Source: Escherichia coli
GTDB lineage: Bacteria > Pseudomonadota > Gammaproteobacteria > Enterobacterales > Enterobacteriaceae
Strand: one strand, 5' to 3'
Assembly (NCBI RefSeq): GCF_003991155.1
Contig: NZ_CP031296.1
DNA: 60,038 nucleotides
Each line of letters begins with the position of its first letter. Within the stretch, counting starts at the first letter, position 1. This document shows positions 9,001-15,000 of this stretch, piece by piece. The position numbers are program-made.

Positions 9001-12000
9001 AGAATTGTAAGGACGGCTACACCATCAAGACGAAACGTTGATATAAAGGAATGCGCGACCACTCCAATAATTGCCAAGCAGAGACATAAATAAATGAAGA
9101 CGTTTTTGTTGCGTTGTTTTTTTTGTGCGCGATCATGATCATCTATGATTGCCAGTATCTTTTCTGGGGTTGGTTGAGCCATTTTTTTTCCTTATCAGGG
9201 ACACGGAGTGTTTAATTACATAGCTTTACATTGTAAAGCTATGTTTGTCTTTACGATGTAAATGATGAGATGTGCAGTTAAAAGTGTCAATCAGGTATCA
9301 TATAGTAAAACACTATATGATTTTCTATGTATCACATGCATAGCGATAAAACTGGATAAATGATTTACACTGTAAAGATTGAACTGTCTTTACAGTGTGT
9401 TTCATAAGTCATACGAATGAAATAATTTGCTTTTGTGTGTATGCGTGTGTATAATTGTTTTCAGGTTAGGGAGGACATATGAAATCTGCTGACCTGTTGA
9501 AAGAACTGATAGCTGCTGGTTGCGAGTTGAAACGGCATAAGGCAAGCAGTCACCAGATATGGTGGTCGCCAATAACAGGAAAAACTTTTCCTGTTCCTCA
9601 TCCTAAAAAGGACTTGCCGCTAGGTACTGTCAGATCGATCAAAAAAATGGCGGGGATTTAATCCCCGCCGACTTTGGAGGTAGCCATGTTCTTTTCTGTT
9701 GGTGTCGAAACACCGAAAGATGATCATACAGCATACGGTATCACCGTTCCGGTTTTTGATTGCTTTGATTTTGGATGTGTTTCTGCTGCTGATTCTCAGG
9801 CAGAAATACCCGCAATGGCGCGTGAAGCGATATTGGCAATCGTGGAAGAGATGGTAATAAGCGGTGCTCATTCTGTTGATGATATTCATGATGAAGGGTG
9901 TTTGACTTATTCCGCCAACCCAAATTATAACCACTGTGATAGCTGGTTTGTAATTGATGTTGATTTGTCAGAAATTGAGGGCAAACAACAACGTATTAAT
10001 ATTTCATTGCCTGATGTATTGATTCGTCGTATTGATGGATATGTGAGAGAAAGTGGTGGCGTATACAAAGATCGTAGCCATTTTCTGGCTCAGGCGGCAC
10101 GTCATGAACTTGCATATAAATAAAACTATCCCCGCGTTGTGCGGGGATTTTTTTTGATAGCTAACCGCTCGCCGCAGTCCAGCGACCGAGCATAGCGAGC
10201 GAGCGACGAGGAAGCGGAAGATCCACCGTTGCCAGGAGAAAAGCAGGTACGCACTATGCGTTCTGCCCTAGTGATGCTTTCACAAACCACGCAGCCTGAA
10301 CTATTACGCCATGAATCCAGCGCAAATCGGCATCACGATTTTCTTTTTTCATTTTTTCGCCACTTAAAGCCTTGCTTACGTGACTTTTTACCAGATTTTC
10401 GTGTAATTCTTTTGCTTCTTCAATTGTGAAACCACCAGGCAAATTTGGCGCTTCTGCTTCCAGTGATGCCAGAGCAATTTCATAAGCCCGGCGCTCAATA
10501 TTGTCTCGCACGTCCAGGCTGCCGATTCGCTCCCTGATTTCTTTAATTAGTTTCTTGTCGTCGTCGGTAAAAGTTGTCATTAGTGACTCCTTTTCATATC
10601 TATGGTTTTCTTGAATCAATTTCGTCTAGTTTGAGTTTTATATTTTGCTGGTCTGATTTTGGTAATTTTCTCATGCTCTCTTCAGTTATTTTTTTCATAT
10701 CAAGAAAAGCTCTTGCATAGAAGCGCAGGCTTGCCTCTTTTTCATGTTGTGCAACATACCAGGTTGCGCCAGAAAATGCCGCAGACAGGCATAATGTGCA
10801 CAAGGCACAAATTGCAATGGCTGTTCTTGTACTGAAGGGTTTTACAGCCTTAGATAATGACTTCAACTTTTCTTCATATAATTTGTTGTTTTTTTCCTGG
10901 TTGCGTTTAATTCCAGATATGAGTTCAATAATATCATCTGTTAATTTTTCTTTTACCTCAATACTTGTTTCTTTTAGATCGTTTTTTCCCTCTTCTACTT
11001 TTTCTTTTATTTCATTATCCAGATCGCCGCACGTCTCAACAATATTCTTGAATCTTTGAATATAGTCATTTTCTACAGATGAAACGACCTGTCTGAAGCC
11101 CTCAGACAGGGCTGTGAAGTTAGCTTGTAACTCATTGCTGAATTTTTCCTGTATCTTTTGGTTCAGAAAAATTAATGAAATAACTGGATCATCTTTTGAT
11201 ATTTTATGCCCTGTCTCCTTGAATACATCAACAATAAAATTATCAATATCTTCACTGGAAACAGCCTTTTCAGGCTGTTTTAATTCTGGCTGATTAACTG
11301 TACTCATATTATTCACCGTGTTCATCGTCATAGATGCTATCTAATTGTTTGTAAATGTCATTGAAGACTCGTTTTAATCGTGATTTAGCCATTAATCCAA
11401 AATGGTCGGACTCAAGAGCTTCTTTCAGTGTTAGTGATTTTTCTGTTAGCTCTTTGATGTCAGAGGCAAAGGCATCACTTTTTCTGTCCTGAATAACCAC
11501 AACGCCAGCGATTACATCCTTGTTTTTTTCAATGAATTTAGTTTCTATTAATGGGATATTTTCAAGTGCTGGAATACCCTGAAATTCATTTATCCAGACA
11601 ATAAGTTTTACCTTACTTCCTTTAACCAGTTCTTTCAGTTCTTCAAATCCCTGCAAGGTATCCGCAAGAGCTTGTCCACCAACGATAACAGTATGGATAT
11701 AAACGTCTTGTTCTACATCTTCAAACATGTCCATAACACAGTTATCATTGAAATACTGAATTAACGGTAAAAATGTAGATGCGCCATTGTCAATAACAAA
11801 AGTATTCTGACTATTGGTCAGCATTGATTCGAACATTGGATCGAATTTGGATTGTATTACTTTGCTGTTTTCAGTGATTTGTATCAAATCTGCATTTAAT
11901 CTTTTTACTTTAACCGTAGTTGTATTAACCGGGTCTGTGTCACCGACTACGATATTATCCATGTGATTTTCATCAATAAAGTATTGTGCCAGTATTGCGG

Positions 12001-15000
12001 TCGCGAATGATTTTCCAACACCACCTTTACCCTGAAGGATGAAATTGATTGAGTTTTTCATTTATAATGCTCCTTTACTTAAAGATATTTATTTATGAAT
12101 TTTTCATTCGTAGCACTTGGATCGTGCTCTATTTCTTTTTTGTTCTCACTAATGTTTGAAAAAAAACCTTTTACCCCCCCTCTCGGTTCATCGCCTTTAG
12201 CTTCATTCTGATCAATTACATCTATGGTTTTTGCCTGTTCTTTTGGTTCAGTGCATTTTTGTCTTTTTTTAGCCCTCTCTGTCATATTTATATAAGTCTT
12301 TTGGGCTAGTTCTGTCTTGGTGTTGTTGTTTATGTAATCAGCTATTTGCTCCCATGTATAATATTTCTTTGCTTCAAGTATATTTTGCAAATACATATTG
12401 AAGACAGCCTGCTTTGATTTCGATTTTGTTTCGTTTATAGCCTCGCATATTGGAGATAATAAACTCTCGATCTTTTTCATTTGTTACATTTCCTCTCTCT
12501 CTCTACCTCCTACATTGGCATAATACCTTATTTAAAGCAATTTGCTCGCCGTTTGTGTGGGTGATTATGTGGGTTGTTTTGTGGGTTGTCAATGGGGGTG
12601 TGGTCTTTTTTGTGGGTTAAAGTGTGGGTGATTGTGTGGGTTGTGTATTTTTGGTTGTGGGTTATTATGTGAGTCATTGTGTGGGCTGTATGCACGGAAT
12701 TTTTTTGTTCTGCTAAAACACAGGCACGATACCGATTGTACACAAGACCGTTCCGGTCATGTTACAATCGTGTGCCAAAGGGGGACGCCCCTTTGAAACC
12801 CCGAACGATGCAGCCGTTCTTATGCGGTTCTACGAACCTTGAGGACATATGAAGAAAAAAACCAACAAAAACGTTCATGTAACATTCAGACTTACCGAAG
12901 AAGAATATGCTCCGTTCGATAGGGCTATAAAAGAGCTTAATATTAGTAAGTCTGAATTTTTCAGGCTGCTTACTATTGGTAAAATAAACACATATGCATC
13001 TGATAAACGTAACATACCAGAATACAAACGTTGTCTTTCTCAGTTGAGTTGGGCAGGAAACAACATAAATCAAATAGCGCACCGATTAAATTCAGATCAT
13101 TTAAAAGGTATTATATCAGAATCGCTTTATAAAAAGGTTTTAAATGGACTAATCGGTATTCGTGATCGCCTTCAGGAGATAGCTAAATGATTGTCAGATA
13201 CGGTGGTGGTAATGATGGTATCGTTGATTATCTGATAAATGGTCGCAAAGCAGAACGCCAGTACACGCGTGATGAACTTGATCATCGTGTTGTTCTTGAT
13301 GGTGATTTACAGACTACAGATAAGATTATTGATTCTATTGAAAACAAAAGTCAGGAACGTTATTTGCACATTACTCTGTCTTTTCATGAAAGTCATGTGT
13401 CGAATGAAGTGTTAAAGGCTGTTGTTGATGATTATAAAAAATTATTGATGAATGCTTATCATCCTGATGAATACTCTTTTTATGCGGAAGCTCATTTGCC
13501 TAAAATTCGTCATATCCAGGATAATAGCACTGGTGAACTTGTTGAAAGAAAACCACATATTCATATTGTAATTCCTAAAGTAAATTTGATTACTGAAAAG
13601 TTCCTGAATCCAGTGGGAGATGTTACCAAAGGGCATACAATTGAACAGCTTGATGCTATACAGGAATTTATTAATAATAAATATAATCTTGATAGCCCTA
13701 AAGACTATCCGCGTAAAGATGCGGATTACGGAAAAATTATAAGTAGAGTTAAGGGGGATCTTTACAAAGAGCATCACTCTGAATTGAAAGGTGAGTTGCT
13801 TTCGCGTATAGAGAACGAGAAAATTGAAAATTACTCTGTATTCAAAGATATTGTTGCAGAGTATGGTGAACTTCGTATAAGAAATGCTGGTAAAACCAAT
13901 GAGTATCTGGCTGTAAAATTGCCTGGAGATAAAAAATACATAAACTTAAAAAGTCCTCTTTTTCGTCAGAATTACATTGAGACAAGGACATTAACACTTG
14001 AGAAACCAACACACAAAGAGATAGAAAAGAGACTTAATACCTGGTTAAATAAAACAAGCCAAGAGATTAAGCATATTTTTAACCAGGCGGAGAAAACAAG
14101 GGAACTTTACAAGACATTAAGCCCTTCACAACAAATTGATTTCCTGCAAGAGAGGATAAAAGAATATGACTCAAGAGAAAAACTTAACGAAAGAAATTCT
14201 CAGCAAACGTCAGGACGAGCGGGAGGTTACAAGTCGTGTCCTAAAAAGTTTGCCAGAATCCGTCAATCTGAAGCAACAGTCGGATTGTCACGTATGCCCC
14301 AACGCGGTATGGTTTACGGAATCAATGGATTCACAAGACCCGACTCTGTCAGTGTATTGTCAGATATTTCGCAGCGTGATCTGGCAGAGCAATTATCGCA
14401 AAGAGAACATCCTGGTCAGGATGTGCGACGGGATTATGATAGACAATTCACAGAGTCAGGAATAAAAAGTCTTGAACGCTCTTCTTTTTTGTGTGAAACG
14501 ATGTTTCAGACTCTGAATGAGGCGGCAGAGAAAAACGAAATTGCAACGATGGCAGAAATTCGCAGAAATATTGATCCTGTCAGGTTTCTGTCTTCTGCCG
14601 CCGAGCGTTTTAATATTATTCCAGCGCAGCATAAAATCAGAACAGCAAAGGACGGTTCCCCCCGGTTTTCTGTGGGGAATCGTAATATGAACGCATCTGA
14701 TTTTCTGACAAAGCATATTAATCTTGCCTGGAAAGATGCGAAATCCTTTCTGCTTGAAGTTTATTCACAGCAGTTAGAAAACACGCCATATACGCGCTAT
14801 CCAACCTACAGACGCCTTACGCATCATGAAGCCCGTGAGCGTCTTAACTCACTGAATTTATCGGAAAAAACATTACGAAATACTATCAGGTTTGAGCGTG
14901 GCAAGCTGTATAATGATCTGCGAGAGATGAGACGCGAGTTGAAGTTAATACCACGTGAACAGCGTGATATTGCCGTGGGTGTGATTGTTTACAAAAAACT

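What the first reader, a model, noticed from the sequence alone, without database searches (positions are those of the whole stretch)
10254..12848. ParA-like ATPase block abutting a repeat-rich candidate oriT
A deviant-Walker-A ATPase (11309-12061), a coiled-coil membrane protein and two small unknowns are transcribed away from a non-coding region packed with GTGGGT repeats, immediately upstream of nikA. This is reminiscent of StbA/StbB-type modules that couple plasmid positioning to conjugation. The nick site itself was not located.
Basis: inference. Interest (0 to 1): 0.4.

Follow-up and report, generated by a model that had tools for sequence, protein, structure and literature searches.

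The report
Plasmid transfer origin with helper operon
This is the conjugative transfer origin of a common IncI2 resistance plasmid plus its neighbouring operon (a repeat-binding protein, a ParA-like ATPase and a membrane protein), a known kind of module that assists conjugation rather than plasmid partition.

Summary

In R721-type IncI2 plasmids, exactly 10844-12712 is replaced by an StbB-type cassette carrying a different repeat motif. The repeats therefore belong to the operon, not to NikA/NikB. Published TP114 transposon data show orf133 and traL are dispensable for maintenance and contribute only modestly to transfer. A separate ParA does partitioning.

The Stb-like reading is supported. 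Guynet et al. 2011 already listed IncI2 among Stb/TraKLM plasmids. New here are the repeat map, the nick prediction and the cassette boundaries. Interest is low to moderate.

The parts
12079..12480 (-). orf133: StbA/TraK-position protein. N-terminal helical HTH-like domain (residues 1-78), disordered linker, short C-terminal helix. Mis-named 'zinc transporter' in GenBank.
11309..12061 (-). TraL: ParA/MinD-superfamily ATPase with deviant Walker A KGGVGKS (residues 12-18), Walker A' D43 and Walker B D91.
   Evidence: NCBIfam PRK13886 (IncP TraL) matches at E=1e-53 over positions 4-237 of 241. Pfam CbiA matches. The invariant residues appear in alignment A5. The AF2 model has pLDDT 91 and Foldseek hits ParA2, MinD and ParF at about E=1e-5. 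Homologues occur in 1287 plasmid records.
10600..11331 (-). orf243: TraM-position protein. N-terminal TraM-like region, coiled-coil middle, one transmembrane helix (about residues 171-189). The start may instead be the ATG at 11307, as annotated in TP114.
   Evidence: NCBIfam IncP TraM PRK13895 matches at E=1.6e-3. Family profile against IncP TraM profile gives hhalign probability 88.9%, E=2.4e-6. The C-terminal 78 aa are identical to the third protein of the R721-type module.
10254..10619 (-). Small ORF of unknown function (probable CDS 10254-10580). Last gene before the terminator and variable between IncI2 plasmids.
   Evidence: ORF list and annotation. No family hits. TP114 carries different small ORFs here.
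10128..10148 (.). Bidirectional terminator-like hairpin closing the operon on one side and hicAB on the other.
12555..12686 (+). Array of 10 same-orientation units (N)TGTGGG(T), read ACCCACA on the operon-sense strand. The period is 12 bp, in three sub-arrays. It is the putative binding site of orf133 and is analogous to R388 stbS/stbDR.
   Evidence: Mapped. The motif differs in every relative while the architecture is kept. The motif switches together with the cassette in R721-type IncI2 plasmids.
12564..12592 (-). Promoter-like site for the orf133-traL operon (TTGACA, 17 nt, CATAAT; 11 of 12 matches), embedded in the first sub-array.
   Evidence: TTGACA is also present at the equivalent place in L003 and L004.
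12724..12731 (-). Predicted nick core 5'-TATCGTG|C-3' on the minus strand, with the nick between 12725 and 12724. The minus strand would be transferred, operon side first.
   Evidence: It matches 7 of 8 positions of the MOBP consensus (C/T)ATCCTG(C/T) (PMC3772185). It lies 8 nt 3' of the inverted repeat, as in RP4 (PMC7314908) and in pB3. The CGTGCCT core is invariant in 7 relatives. It has not been assayed.
12733..12770 (.). Nick-proximal imperfect inverted repeat (hairpin). It extends to GGCAC/GTGCC at 12723-12776.
   Evidence: ssDNA fold -16.5 kcal/mol, z=-4.9. The stem sequence differs but pairing is kept in TP114, pU90-1, pF3028, pE16EC0715-3, pCFE167 and the 2.1-kb plasmid.
12776..12795 (.). 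Conserved GC-rich inverted repeat CAAAGGGG-N4-CCCCTTTG. It is a candidate NikA (RHH) site.
   Evidence: It is nearly invariant in 7 relatives. The function is inferred.
12826..12838 (.). Conserved GGTTCTACGAACC motif just upstream of the nikA ribosome-binding site. It is a candidate operator or relaxosome site.
   Evidence: It is present in the window, TP114, L003, L005 and the 2.1-kb oriT-only plasmid. The function is inferred.
12849..13190 (+). nikA: RHH relaxosome accessory protein.
   Evidence: Pfam NikA-like E=2.9e-11 and MobC E=9e-7.
13187..17500 (+). nikB: MOBP relaxase (1437 aa) with an LPD7 domain.
   Evidence: Pfam LPD7 E=2.4e-14 and a weak Relaxase hit. PLSDB types it as MOBP.
10844..12712 (.). 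Exchangeable cassette (array, orf133, traL and the N-terminal ~163 codons of orf243). In R721-type IncI2 plasmids it is replaced by an StbB-type cassette.
   Evidence: blastn of the window against L011 and L012 shows flanks at least 95.7% identical and no match inside.

Best explanation
The region is the IncI2 origin of transfer together with its leading-side 'leader' operon. That operon belongs to the TraK-TraL-TraM / StbA-StbB-StbC family.

Proposed mechanism (all inferred unless marked shown):
1. NikA and NikB assemble on the conserved inverted repeats at 12733-12795.
2. NikB nicks the minus strand at TATCGTG|C, between 12725 and 12724. The array and the orf133-traL operon then enter the recipient first.
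3. orf133 binds cooperatively, through its N-terminal HTH domain, to the ten 12-bp-phased ACCCACA units between nic and its own gene. This complex covers the TTGACA-17-CATAAT promoter and so autoregulates the operon.
4. TraL, a ParA-like ATPase with no DNA-binding partner domain of its own, acts on that complex. It may also act on the relaxosome or the coupling protein. The effect is to make the plasmid available to the type IV secretion system, as StbB does in R388. The membrane protein orf243 (TraM-like) may anchor the complex.
5. The module improves transfer but is not essential for it, and it is not the plasmid's partition system.

Shown here: the homologies, the anatomy, the co-variation of repeat motif with cassette, and the conservation of the nick core and hairpin.
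Inferred: DNA binding by orf133, the exact nick position, and what TraL does.
For: Identity
- The window is an IncI2/MOBP/MPF_T plasmid.
- TraL matches the IncP TraL model at E=1e-53.
- orf243 is TraM-like.
- The order relaxase <- RHH <- oriT -> small ORF -> TraL -> third gene is the same in IncP-1 pB3 and five other plasmids.

oriT
- The hairpin, then 8 nt, then TATCGTG|C can be set against IncP ACATCCTG|C in pB3.
- The consensus and the 8-bp rule come from PMC3772185 and PMC7314908.
- The core is invariant, and the hairpin is kept by compensatory changes in 7 relatives.
- About 50 2.1-kb ColpVC plasmids carry only rep plus this region and are typed mobilizable.

Repeats belong to the operon
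- Every relative has a unidirectional 10-12-bp-period array at the same place with its own motif: CCCACA, CACACA, AAACCGC, GCAAACA, CATAGCA, ATCGCR.
- In R721-type IncI2 plasmids, NikA/NikB and the nick region stay at least 99% identical. The array changes to GCTATG together with the StbA-like and ATPase genes. The breakpoint is 12 bp from the predicted nick.
- R388 StbA binds two sets of five 11-bp-phased repeats located between nic and stbA that overlap its promoter.
- RP4 TraK binds about 200 bp there and represses traJp and traKp.

Function
- In the TP114 transposon screen, the orf133 homologue scores '+' for in vitro conjugation and '++' for the combined in vitro plus in situ condition. 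traL scores '+' in situ and '++' combined.
- Both score '-' for maintenance, whereas parA scores '++' for maintenance. Gene order was verified.
- The promoter match is 11 of 12 and lies inside the array.
Against: - orf133 gives no direct hit to Pfam DUF5338 (the TraK N-terminus) or NCBIfam StbA_2. The profile comparison with IncP TraK is not significant (E=0.26).
- The A3 profile already contains YciA-type members, so the hhalign E=6e-24 is partly circular. The independent link is the two-step BLAST/phmmer chain.
- The nick core departs from ATCCTG at one position of the hexanucleotide that RP4 TraI requires. It would also sit in the basal stem of the extended hairpin. The exact phosphodiester could therefore be off by a few bases.
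- The TP114 scores for orf133 and traL are weak and vary between conditions, and transposon insertions can be polar.
- The 2.1-kb plasmids' array is nearly identical to that of TP114. Its retention may reflect recent capture rather than selection.
Confidence: 0.75

Rival explanations
1. The module is mainly a second segregation or positioning system. orf133 bound to the array would act as a centromere complex that tethers plasmid copies to the nucleoid, as StbA-stbS does in R388, with TraL as its modulator.
For: orf133 is StbA-like, and the array resembles stbS. In R388, StbA is required for stability.
Against: The TP114 transposon screen scores the orf133 homologue and traL '-' for maintenance, while the separate parA scores '++'. 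The window carries that ParA plus an RHH partner at 4048-5071. R388 lacks any other par system, so its dependence on StbA need not carry over to IncI2. A redundant stabilising role is not excluded.
Confidence: 0.12
2. The array is only an operator. orf133 would be an autorepressor of the leader operon (and perhaps of nikAB), with no direct part in DNA processing or delivery.
For: The best promoter match lies inside the first sub-array. StbA and TraK are both repressors.
Against: Ten units spread over about 130 bp are far more than an operator needs. Two of the three sub-arrays lie upstream of the promoter, toward nic. The whole array is present in 2.1-kb plasmids that lack the operon. Insertions in TP114 reduce transfer.
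Confidence: 0.1
3. The repeats are binding sites for the relaxosome proteins NikA or NikB.
For: They lie next to nikA and within what would be cloned as oriT.
Against: R721-type IncI2 plasmids keep nikA, nikB and the nick region at least 99% identical. They nevertheless carry a different repeat motif together with a different StbA-like gene.
Confidence: 0.03
4. The repeats are iterons, a priming signal, or G-quadruplex-forming DNA, unrelated to the operon.
For: The plus strand is G/T-rich with phased GGG runs.
Against: The relatives' motifs (CACACA, AAACCGC, CATAGCA) have no G-runs. The array always sits between nic and the StbA-like gene and co-varies with that gene. I did not look for the replication gene in the window. 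One search shows only that R721's repA is annotated far from its oriT.
Confidence: 0.02

Closest known systems
IncP-1 (RP4/RK2, pB3) oriT with the traK-traL-traM leader operon, divergent from traJ-traI
   Same: The gene order and orientation are the same. TraL is homologous over its full length (33% identity; model E=1e-53). There is a TraM-like third gene. The first-gene product is a small protein of about 133 aa. The nick region has an inverted repeat, 8 nt, then a YATCCTG|Y-like core. The leader operon lies on the leading side.
   Different: orf133 shows no significant sequence match to TraK/DUF5338. The third protein is longer and has a transmembrane helix. The window has a crisp 12-bp repeat array, whereas I saw no clear repeat family in the pB3 intergenic region. 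RP4 TraK is described as binding a curved region of about 200 bp. The nick core is TCGTG rather than TCCTG.
R388 (IncW) stbABC operon with stbS/stbDR
   Same: It is an operon next to oriT, divergent from the relaxase operon, and it enters the recipient first. The first protein has an N-terminal HTH DNA-binding domain and a non-conserved C-terminus. Direct repeats with about one helical turn of spacing, arranged in sets, lie between nic and the operon and overlap its promoter. The ATPase affects conjugation and not stability. The orf133 model hits the StbA structure first.
   Different: The ATPase here is TraL-type (KGGxxKS) rather than StbB-type (SGxxGKS), and the two are not alignable by BLASTP. 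The units have a 12-bp period and number ten in three sets, against two sets of five at 11 bp. IncI2 has its own ParA, so a stability role for orf133 is not expected and was not seen in TP114.
R721-type IncI2 StbB cassette (YciA_R721, StbB, 199-aa protein)
   Same: It occupies the identical site in an otherwise at least 95.7% identical backbone. Its first protein is homologous. The C-terminal 78 residues of its third protein are identical. It also has a unidirectional repeat array.
   Different: Its ATPase is of a different family (NF041292 StbB, E=2e-64). Its repeat motif is GCTATG at an 11-bp period. Its first protein carries an extra C-terminal domain.
Agrobacterium VirC1/VirC2-overdrive
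   Same: A ParA-like ATPase encoded next to a MOBP relaxase operon, reported to help relaxosome function. This comparison rests on general knowledge. PMC3772185 mentions a VirC1-VirD2 interaction in H. pylori.
   Different: TraL does not hit Pfam VirC1, whereas the plasmid's true ParA does. No VirC2-like partner or overdrive was identified.
Type Ib ParA-ParG/RHH partition systems
   Same: They share a deviant Walker A ATPase and a repeat array.
   Different: That role is filled by 4406-5071 plus 4048-4332 in this window. TraL shares only the P-loop with that ParA. TraL is not needed for maintenance in TP114.

Membership tests
TraK-TraL-TraM / StbA-StbB-StbC leader-operon family | The operon lies beside oriT on the leading side and is transcribed divergently from the accessory-protein and relaxase operon. 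| tested here: met
   The genes at 12480->10254 (-) face nikA-nikB at 12849->17500 (+). The same layout occurs in pB3, pU90-1, pF3028, pE16EC0715-3, pPROV007-2 and pYDC107_41.
TraK-TraL-TraM / StbA-StbB-StbC leader-operon family | The second gene is a ParA/Soj/MinD-type ATPase with KGGxxK[ST] (TraL group) or SGxxGK[ST] (StbB group). | tested here: met
   KGGVGKS is present. PRK13886 TraL matches at E=1e-53. The fold is ParA/MinD-like. The grouping is quoted from PMC3098194.
TraK-TraL-TraM / StbA-StbB-StbC leader-operon family | The first gene is a small protein with an StbA/TraK-type N-terminal HTH DNA-binding domain. | tested here: inconclusive
TraK-TraL-TraM / StbA-StbB-StbC leader-operon family | The first-gene product binds a cis site between nic and the operon and represses the operon promoter. 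| not testable with these tools
   The anatomy fits: ten phased units overlap an 11-of-12 promoter match, and the motif co-varies with the cassette. Binding itself needs EMSA or footprinting.
TraK-TraL-TraM / StbA-StbB-StbC leader-operon family | The ATPase promotes conjugation and is dispensable for stability. | not testable with these tools
   Published TP114 transposon scores are consistent: traL is '-' for maintenance and '+' or '++' for conjugation conditions.
TraK-TraL-TraM / StbA-StbB-StbC leader-operon family | The third gene is TraM-like (IncP) or StbC (R388). | tested here: met
   hhalign of the orf243 family against IncP TraM gives probability 88.9%, E=2.4e-6 over 83 columns. There are weak NCBIfam hits to TraM and StbC.
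MOBP-type oriT (IncP/IncI-like) | An inverted repeat is followed after 8 nt by a (C/T)ATCCTG(C/T) nick core on the strand that leads away from the relaxase gene. | tested here: inconclusive
   The inverted repeat and the 8-nt spacing are met. The core TATCGTGC matches 7 of 8 positions, and CGTGCCT is invariant in 7 relatives. Cleavage was not assayed.
MOBP-type oriT (IncP/IncI-like) | An adjacent RHH accessory gene and a MOBP relaxase gene. | tested here: met
   NikA-like and MobC Pfam hits, the relaxase and LPD7 hits, and MOBP typing.
MOBP-type oriT (IncP/IncI-like) | The fragment is sufficient in cis for mobilisation. | not testable with these tools
   The support is indirect. About 50 2.1-kb rep-only plasmids carry an 85-100% identical copy of 12545-12840 and are typed mobilizable. 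oriT of TP114 is used in mobilisable vectors, but its coordinates are not given in the text I could read.
ParABS partition system | The ATPase and its centromere-binding partner are required for stable inheritance. | not testable with these tools
   Published TP114 data argue against it. The orf133 homologue and traL score '-' for maintenance, while the other ParA scores '++'. That ParA/RHH pair is at 4048-5071.
VirC1-type relaxosome ATPase | Sequence membership in Pfam VirC1 (PF07015). | tested here: not met
   TraL gives no VirC1 hit at E<=0.01. The plasmid's ParA does, at E=5.8e-6.

The most novel reading that the evidence does not exclude
The repeat array may be a cis-acting 'conjugative centromere'. 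On this reading, orf133 bound to it and TraL together hand the nicked plasmid to the coupling protein. The array is then part of the functional oriT and is exploited by the 2.1-kb oriT-only plasmids. The TraL-type and StbB-type cassettes would be interchangeable adaptors, each locked to its own array. That would give IncI2 sub-lineages private, mutually non-interfering delivery specificities.
Probability: 0.3. Interest if true: 0.5.

Novelty: already known. Interest (0 to 1): 0.25.

Why it matters
IncI2 plasmids of this type are the main carriers of mcr-1 colistin resistance. They are also the chassis (TP114) for engineered gut conjugative delivery. Knowing which bases make up oriT, and whether the array, orf133 and TraL raise transfer efficiency, has two uses. 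It helps in designing minimal mobilisable vectors, and it helps explain how tiny oriT-only plasmids hitch-hike.

The natural swap of a TraL cassette for an StbB cassette in one backbone is a convenient system. It lets one ask what these poorly understood ParA-like 'conjugation ATPases' do.

None of this changes the current picture. The module's family membership was already published in 2011.

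Tried and rejected
- Direct family scans of orf133 (Pfam, NCBIfam, PDB sequences, PADLOC) gave nothing meaningful.
- The database name 'zinc transporter' for orf133 has no support. The protein has no transmembrane segment and no matching family.
- The orf133 family profile against IncP TraK was not significant.
- BLASTP of TraL against R721 StbB was not significant. The two cassettes' ATPases are therefore not simply diverged alleles.
- I rejected a G-quadruplex or iteron reading of the array, because the relatives' motifs lack G-runs and co-vary with the operon.
- I rejected NikA/NikB binding to the array on the cassette-swap evidence.
- I rejected a defence-system reading. 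The only hits were weak coiled-coil matches to ZorA.
- Literature searches for a mapped IncI2 nick site, or for defined TP114 oriT coordinates, found none in the held library.
- RK2 (BN000925) and R64 (AP005147) were not available by accession. I used IncP-1 pB3 for the comparison instead.
- I did not produce column-wise covariation statistics for the hairpin, because indels spoil the alignment. Per-sequence folds were used instead.

Full report
**What the window is.** Bases 10100-13400 are 100% identical to several ~60-kb E. coli plasmids and at least 95% identical to hundreds more. One of these, pEG430-1, is typed IncI2, MOBP relaxase, MPF_T. It annotates the genes here as a hypothetical protein, traL, hypothetical proteins, nikA and nikB. 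The finding therefore lies in the backbone of the well-known mcr-1-type IncI2 plasmids.

**Checking the observation.**
- The ORFs are as described.
- The ATPase (11309-12061, minus strand) starts MKNSINFILQGKGGVGKS, a deviant Walker A. It matches Pfam CbiA/ParA and the NCBIfam IncP TraL model end to end at E=1e-53.
- Its AF2 model (pLDDT 91) finds ParA2, MinD and ParF folds.
- The 243-aa protein has one clear hydrophobic helix.
- nikA is confirmed by Pfam NikA-like and MobC hits.
- The intergenic 12481-12848 holds seven exact TGTGGGT copies, all on the + strand. The whole window has ten on both strands.
- With one mismatch allowed there are ten units at a 12-bp period in three sub-arrays. TRF finds these independently. 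Phased pairs occur nowhere else apart from one chance pair.

**What the operon is.**
- TraL homologues occur in 1287 plasmid records, including IncP-1, Neisseria, Campylobacter, Xylella and Haemophilus plasmids.
- In IncP-1 pB3 the layout is traI <- traJ <- oriT -> traK (132 aa) -> traL -> traM. The same layout, with a 127-155-aa first gene and a variable third gene, is found in five other plasmids.
- The third protein here is TraM-like: NCBIfam E=1.6e-3 and profile-profile E=2.4e-6.
- orf133 has no direct family hit.
- By sequence, orf133 reaches P0020 (E=7e-14). P0020 reaches the 159-aa first protein of the R721 module (E=1e-18).
- Guynet et al. 2011 linked that R721 protein (YciA_R721), TraK_RP4 and StbA_R388 by PSI-BLAST. 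They listed IncI-2/MOBP6 plasmids among carriers of Stb-like operons, in both the TraL-type and the StbB-type group.

**The oriT anatomy.** Read on the minus strand from nikA toward orf133, the region contains the following elements.
- A conserved GGTTCTACGAACC motif.
- A GC-rich inverted repeat, CAAAGGGG-N4-CCCCTTTG (12776-12795).
- A long imperfect hairpin (12733-12770, extendable to GGCAC/GTGCC at 12723-12776).
- Exactly 8 nt after the inner repeat, TATCGTG|C.

pB3 has ACATCCTG|C 8 nt after its own repeat. The MOBP consensus (C/T)ATCCTG(C/T) and the 8-bp spacing are documented. Across the window, TP114, pU90-1, pF3028, pE16EC0715-3, pCFE167 and a 2.1-kb plasmid, CGTGCCT is invariant. The hairpin stems differ in sequence, yet all fold into the same shape, with z-scores from -4.9 to -7.4 in five of the seven.

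I therefore predict the nick on the minus strand between 12725 and 12724. The region is secure. The exact bond is an inference, and the one-base departure from ATCCTG is a caveat.

**The repeats belong to the operon, not to the relaxosome.**
- Every relative has a one-directional array with a 10-12-bp period between nic and the first gene. The motif differs in each: CCCACA here, CACACA in pU90-1, AAACCGC (13 copies, 11-bp period) in pF3028, GCAAACA, and ATCGCR.
- The decisive case lies within IncI2 itself. R721 and pAUSMDU00010534_03 are at least 95.7% identical to the window up to 10843 and from 12713 onward, which covers the nick region, nikA and nikB.
- Between those points they carry YciA, an StbB-family ATPase (E=2e-64) and a different N-terminal part of the third protein. 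Their array is made of GCTATG units.
- The right-hand breakpoint is 12 bp from the predicted nick.
- In PLSDB, about 445 records have the TraL type at 99% identity or more, and about 71 have the R721 StbB type.

**Promoter and operon limits.** The best sigma-70 match in the region is TTGACA-17-CATAAT (11 of 12 positions). It lies on the minus strand at 12592-12564, inside the first sub-array. A bidirectional terminator at 10128-10148 closes the operon. A protein bound to the array would occlude the promoter. StbA and TraK both do this in their own systems.

**Function.**
- In the TP114 (IncI2) transposon screen, the gene next to nikA (the orf133 homologue; order verified) scores '+' for in vitro conjugation and '++' for the combined in vitro plus in situ condition.
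- traL scores '+' in situ and '++' combined. The third gene scores nothing.
- None of the three matters for maintenance, whereas parA does.
- That ParA, with an RHH partner, is at 4048-5071 in the window.
- This matches R388, where StbB is needed for conjugation and not for stability.
- It argues against a partition role here, although a redundant one cannot be excluded.

**Natural oriT-only plasmids.** About 50 records of a 2.1-kb ColpVC plasmid from Salmonella and E. coli, mostly poultry-associated, encode only Rep. They also carry a copy of 12545-12840, and most are typed mobilizable. The copy has nine repeat units, the nick core, a hairpin with a different interior, the GC-rich repeat and the GGTTCTACGAACC motif. 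This supports the fragment being a working oriT. It hints that the array is part of that oriT. However, the array is almost identical to that of TP114, so recent capture is an alternative explanation.

**Verdict.** The thing is ordinary in kind: a MOBP oriT with a TraK/StbA-TraL-TraM leader operon, already catalogued for IncI2.

This analysis adds four things.
- A map of the 12-bp array and its promoter overlap.
- A predicted nick site.
- The boundaries of the exchangeable TraL/StbB cassette.
- The link to the 2.1-kb oriT-only plasmids.

All mechanistic steps (orf133 binding, the nick position, the action of TraL) remain to be tested.

Noticed in passing
window 10844-12712 versus L011 (NZ_CP045935.1) and L012 (R721, NC_002525.1 26972-28997): IncI2 plasmids come in two forms at this site. 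One carries a TraL-type cassette (this window, TP114). The other carries an StbB-type cassette (R721) with its own repeat motif. One breakpoint is 12 bp from the predicted nick and the other is inside the third gene. The third protein's C-terminal 78 aa, including the transmembrane helix, are identical in both forms.
   Followed up: yes
L009 (NZ_CP016505.1, 2096 bp) 1300-1600, and about 50 similar records: These are 2.1-kb ColpVC plasmids of Salmonella and E. coli, mostly from poultry, that encode only Rep. They carry a TP114-like copy of the IncI2 oriT including nine repeat units, and are apparently oriT-only hitch-hikers. The interior of the hairpin is replaced but still pairs.
   Followed up: partly
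window 15612-15836: An in-frame 18-bp tandem repeat of 12.5 copies (91% matches) lies inside nikB and encodes (QATEQE/A)n. NikB length differs between IncI2 plasmids: 1437 aa here, while the R721 CDS 29473-33291 implies about 1272 aa.
   Followed up: partly
window 4048-5071 (-): A canonical small ParA (221 aa, DKGGVGKST) sits with a 94-aa RHH-like partner. It corresponds to the TP114 parA that is essential for maintenance, so the plasmid carries two unrelated deviant-Walker-A ATPases.
   Followed up: partly
window 9479-10123 (+): A HicA/HicB toxin-antitoxin pair lies immediately beyond the operon's terminator. In TP114 it is scored essential for maintenance.
   Followed up: partly
window 12723-12727 and 12772-12776: GGCAC and GTGCC flank the hairpin and pair in all folds. 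The predicted nick would therefore sit in the basal stem of an extended hairpin rather than in single-stranded DNA. The motif is conserved in 6 of 7 relatives.
   Followed up: partly
window 12803-12838: Two further small conserved palindromic elements lie upstream of nikA: GAACG-N7-CGTTC and GGTTCTACGAACC. The second is kept in the 2.1-kb plasmids and the first is not. They are candidate nikA operator or promoter elements.
   Followed up: no
window 12079-12480 (-): Many GenBank and RefSeq records name this protein 'zinc transporter'. Nothing supports the name. The protein has no transmembrane segment and no family hit, and the model is a helical HTH-like domain with a disordered tail.
   Followed up: yes
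orf133 residues ~103-110 (VKGFFSNI) and pB3 TraK C-terminus (IGGFTF): A short G-F-aromatic stretch in the otherwise disordered C-terminal tail recurs in the window protein, the pU90-1 homologue and IncP TraK. It could be a partner-binding peptide, for example for TraL.
   Followed up: no
L006 (P. aeruginosa pCFE167, NZ_CP093359.1) 4650-4959: A Pseudomonas plasmid has the same nick-region architecture and GCTATGGA-type repeats, but a rearranged gene order in which traL follows ssb and topoisomerase genes. PLSDB types it 'non-mobilizable'.
   Followed up: no
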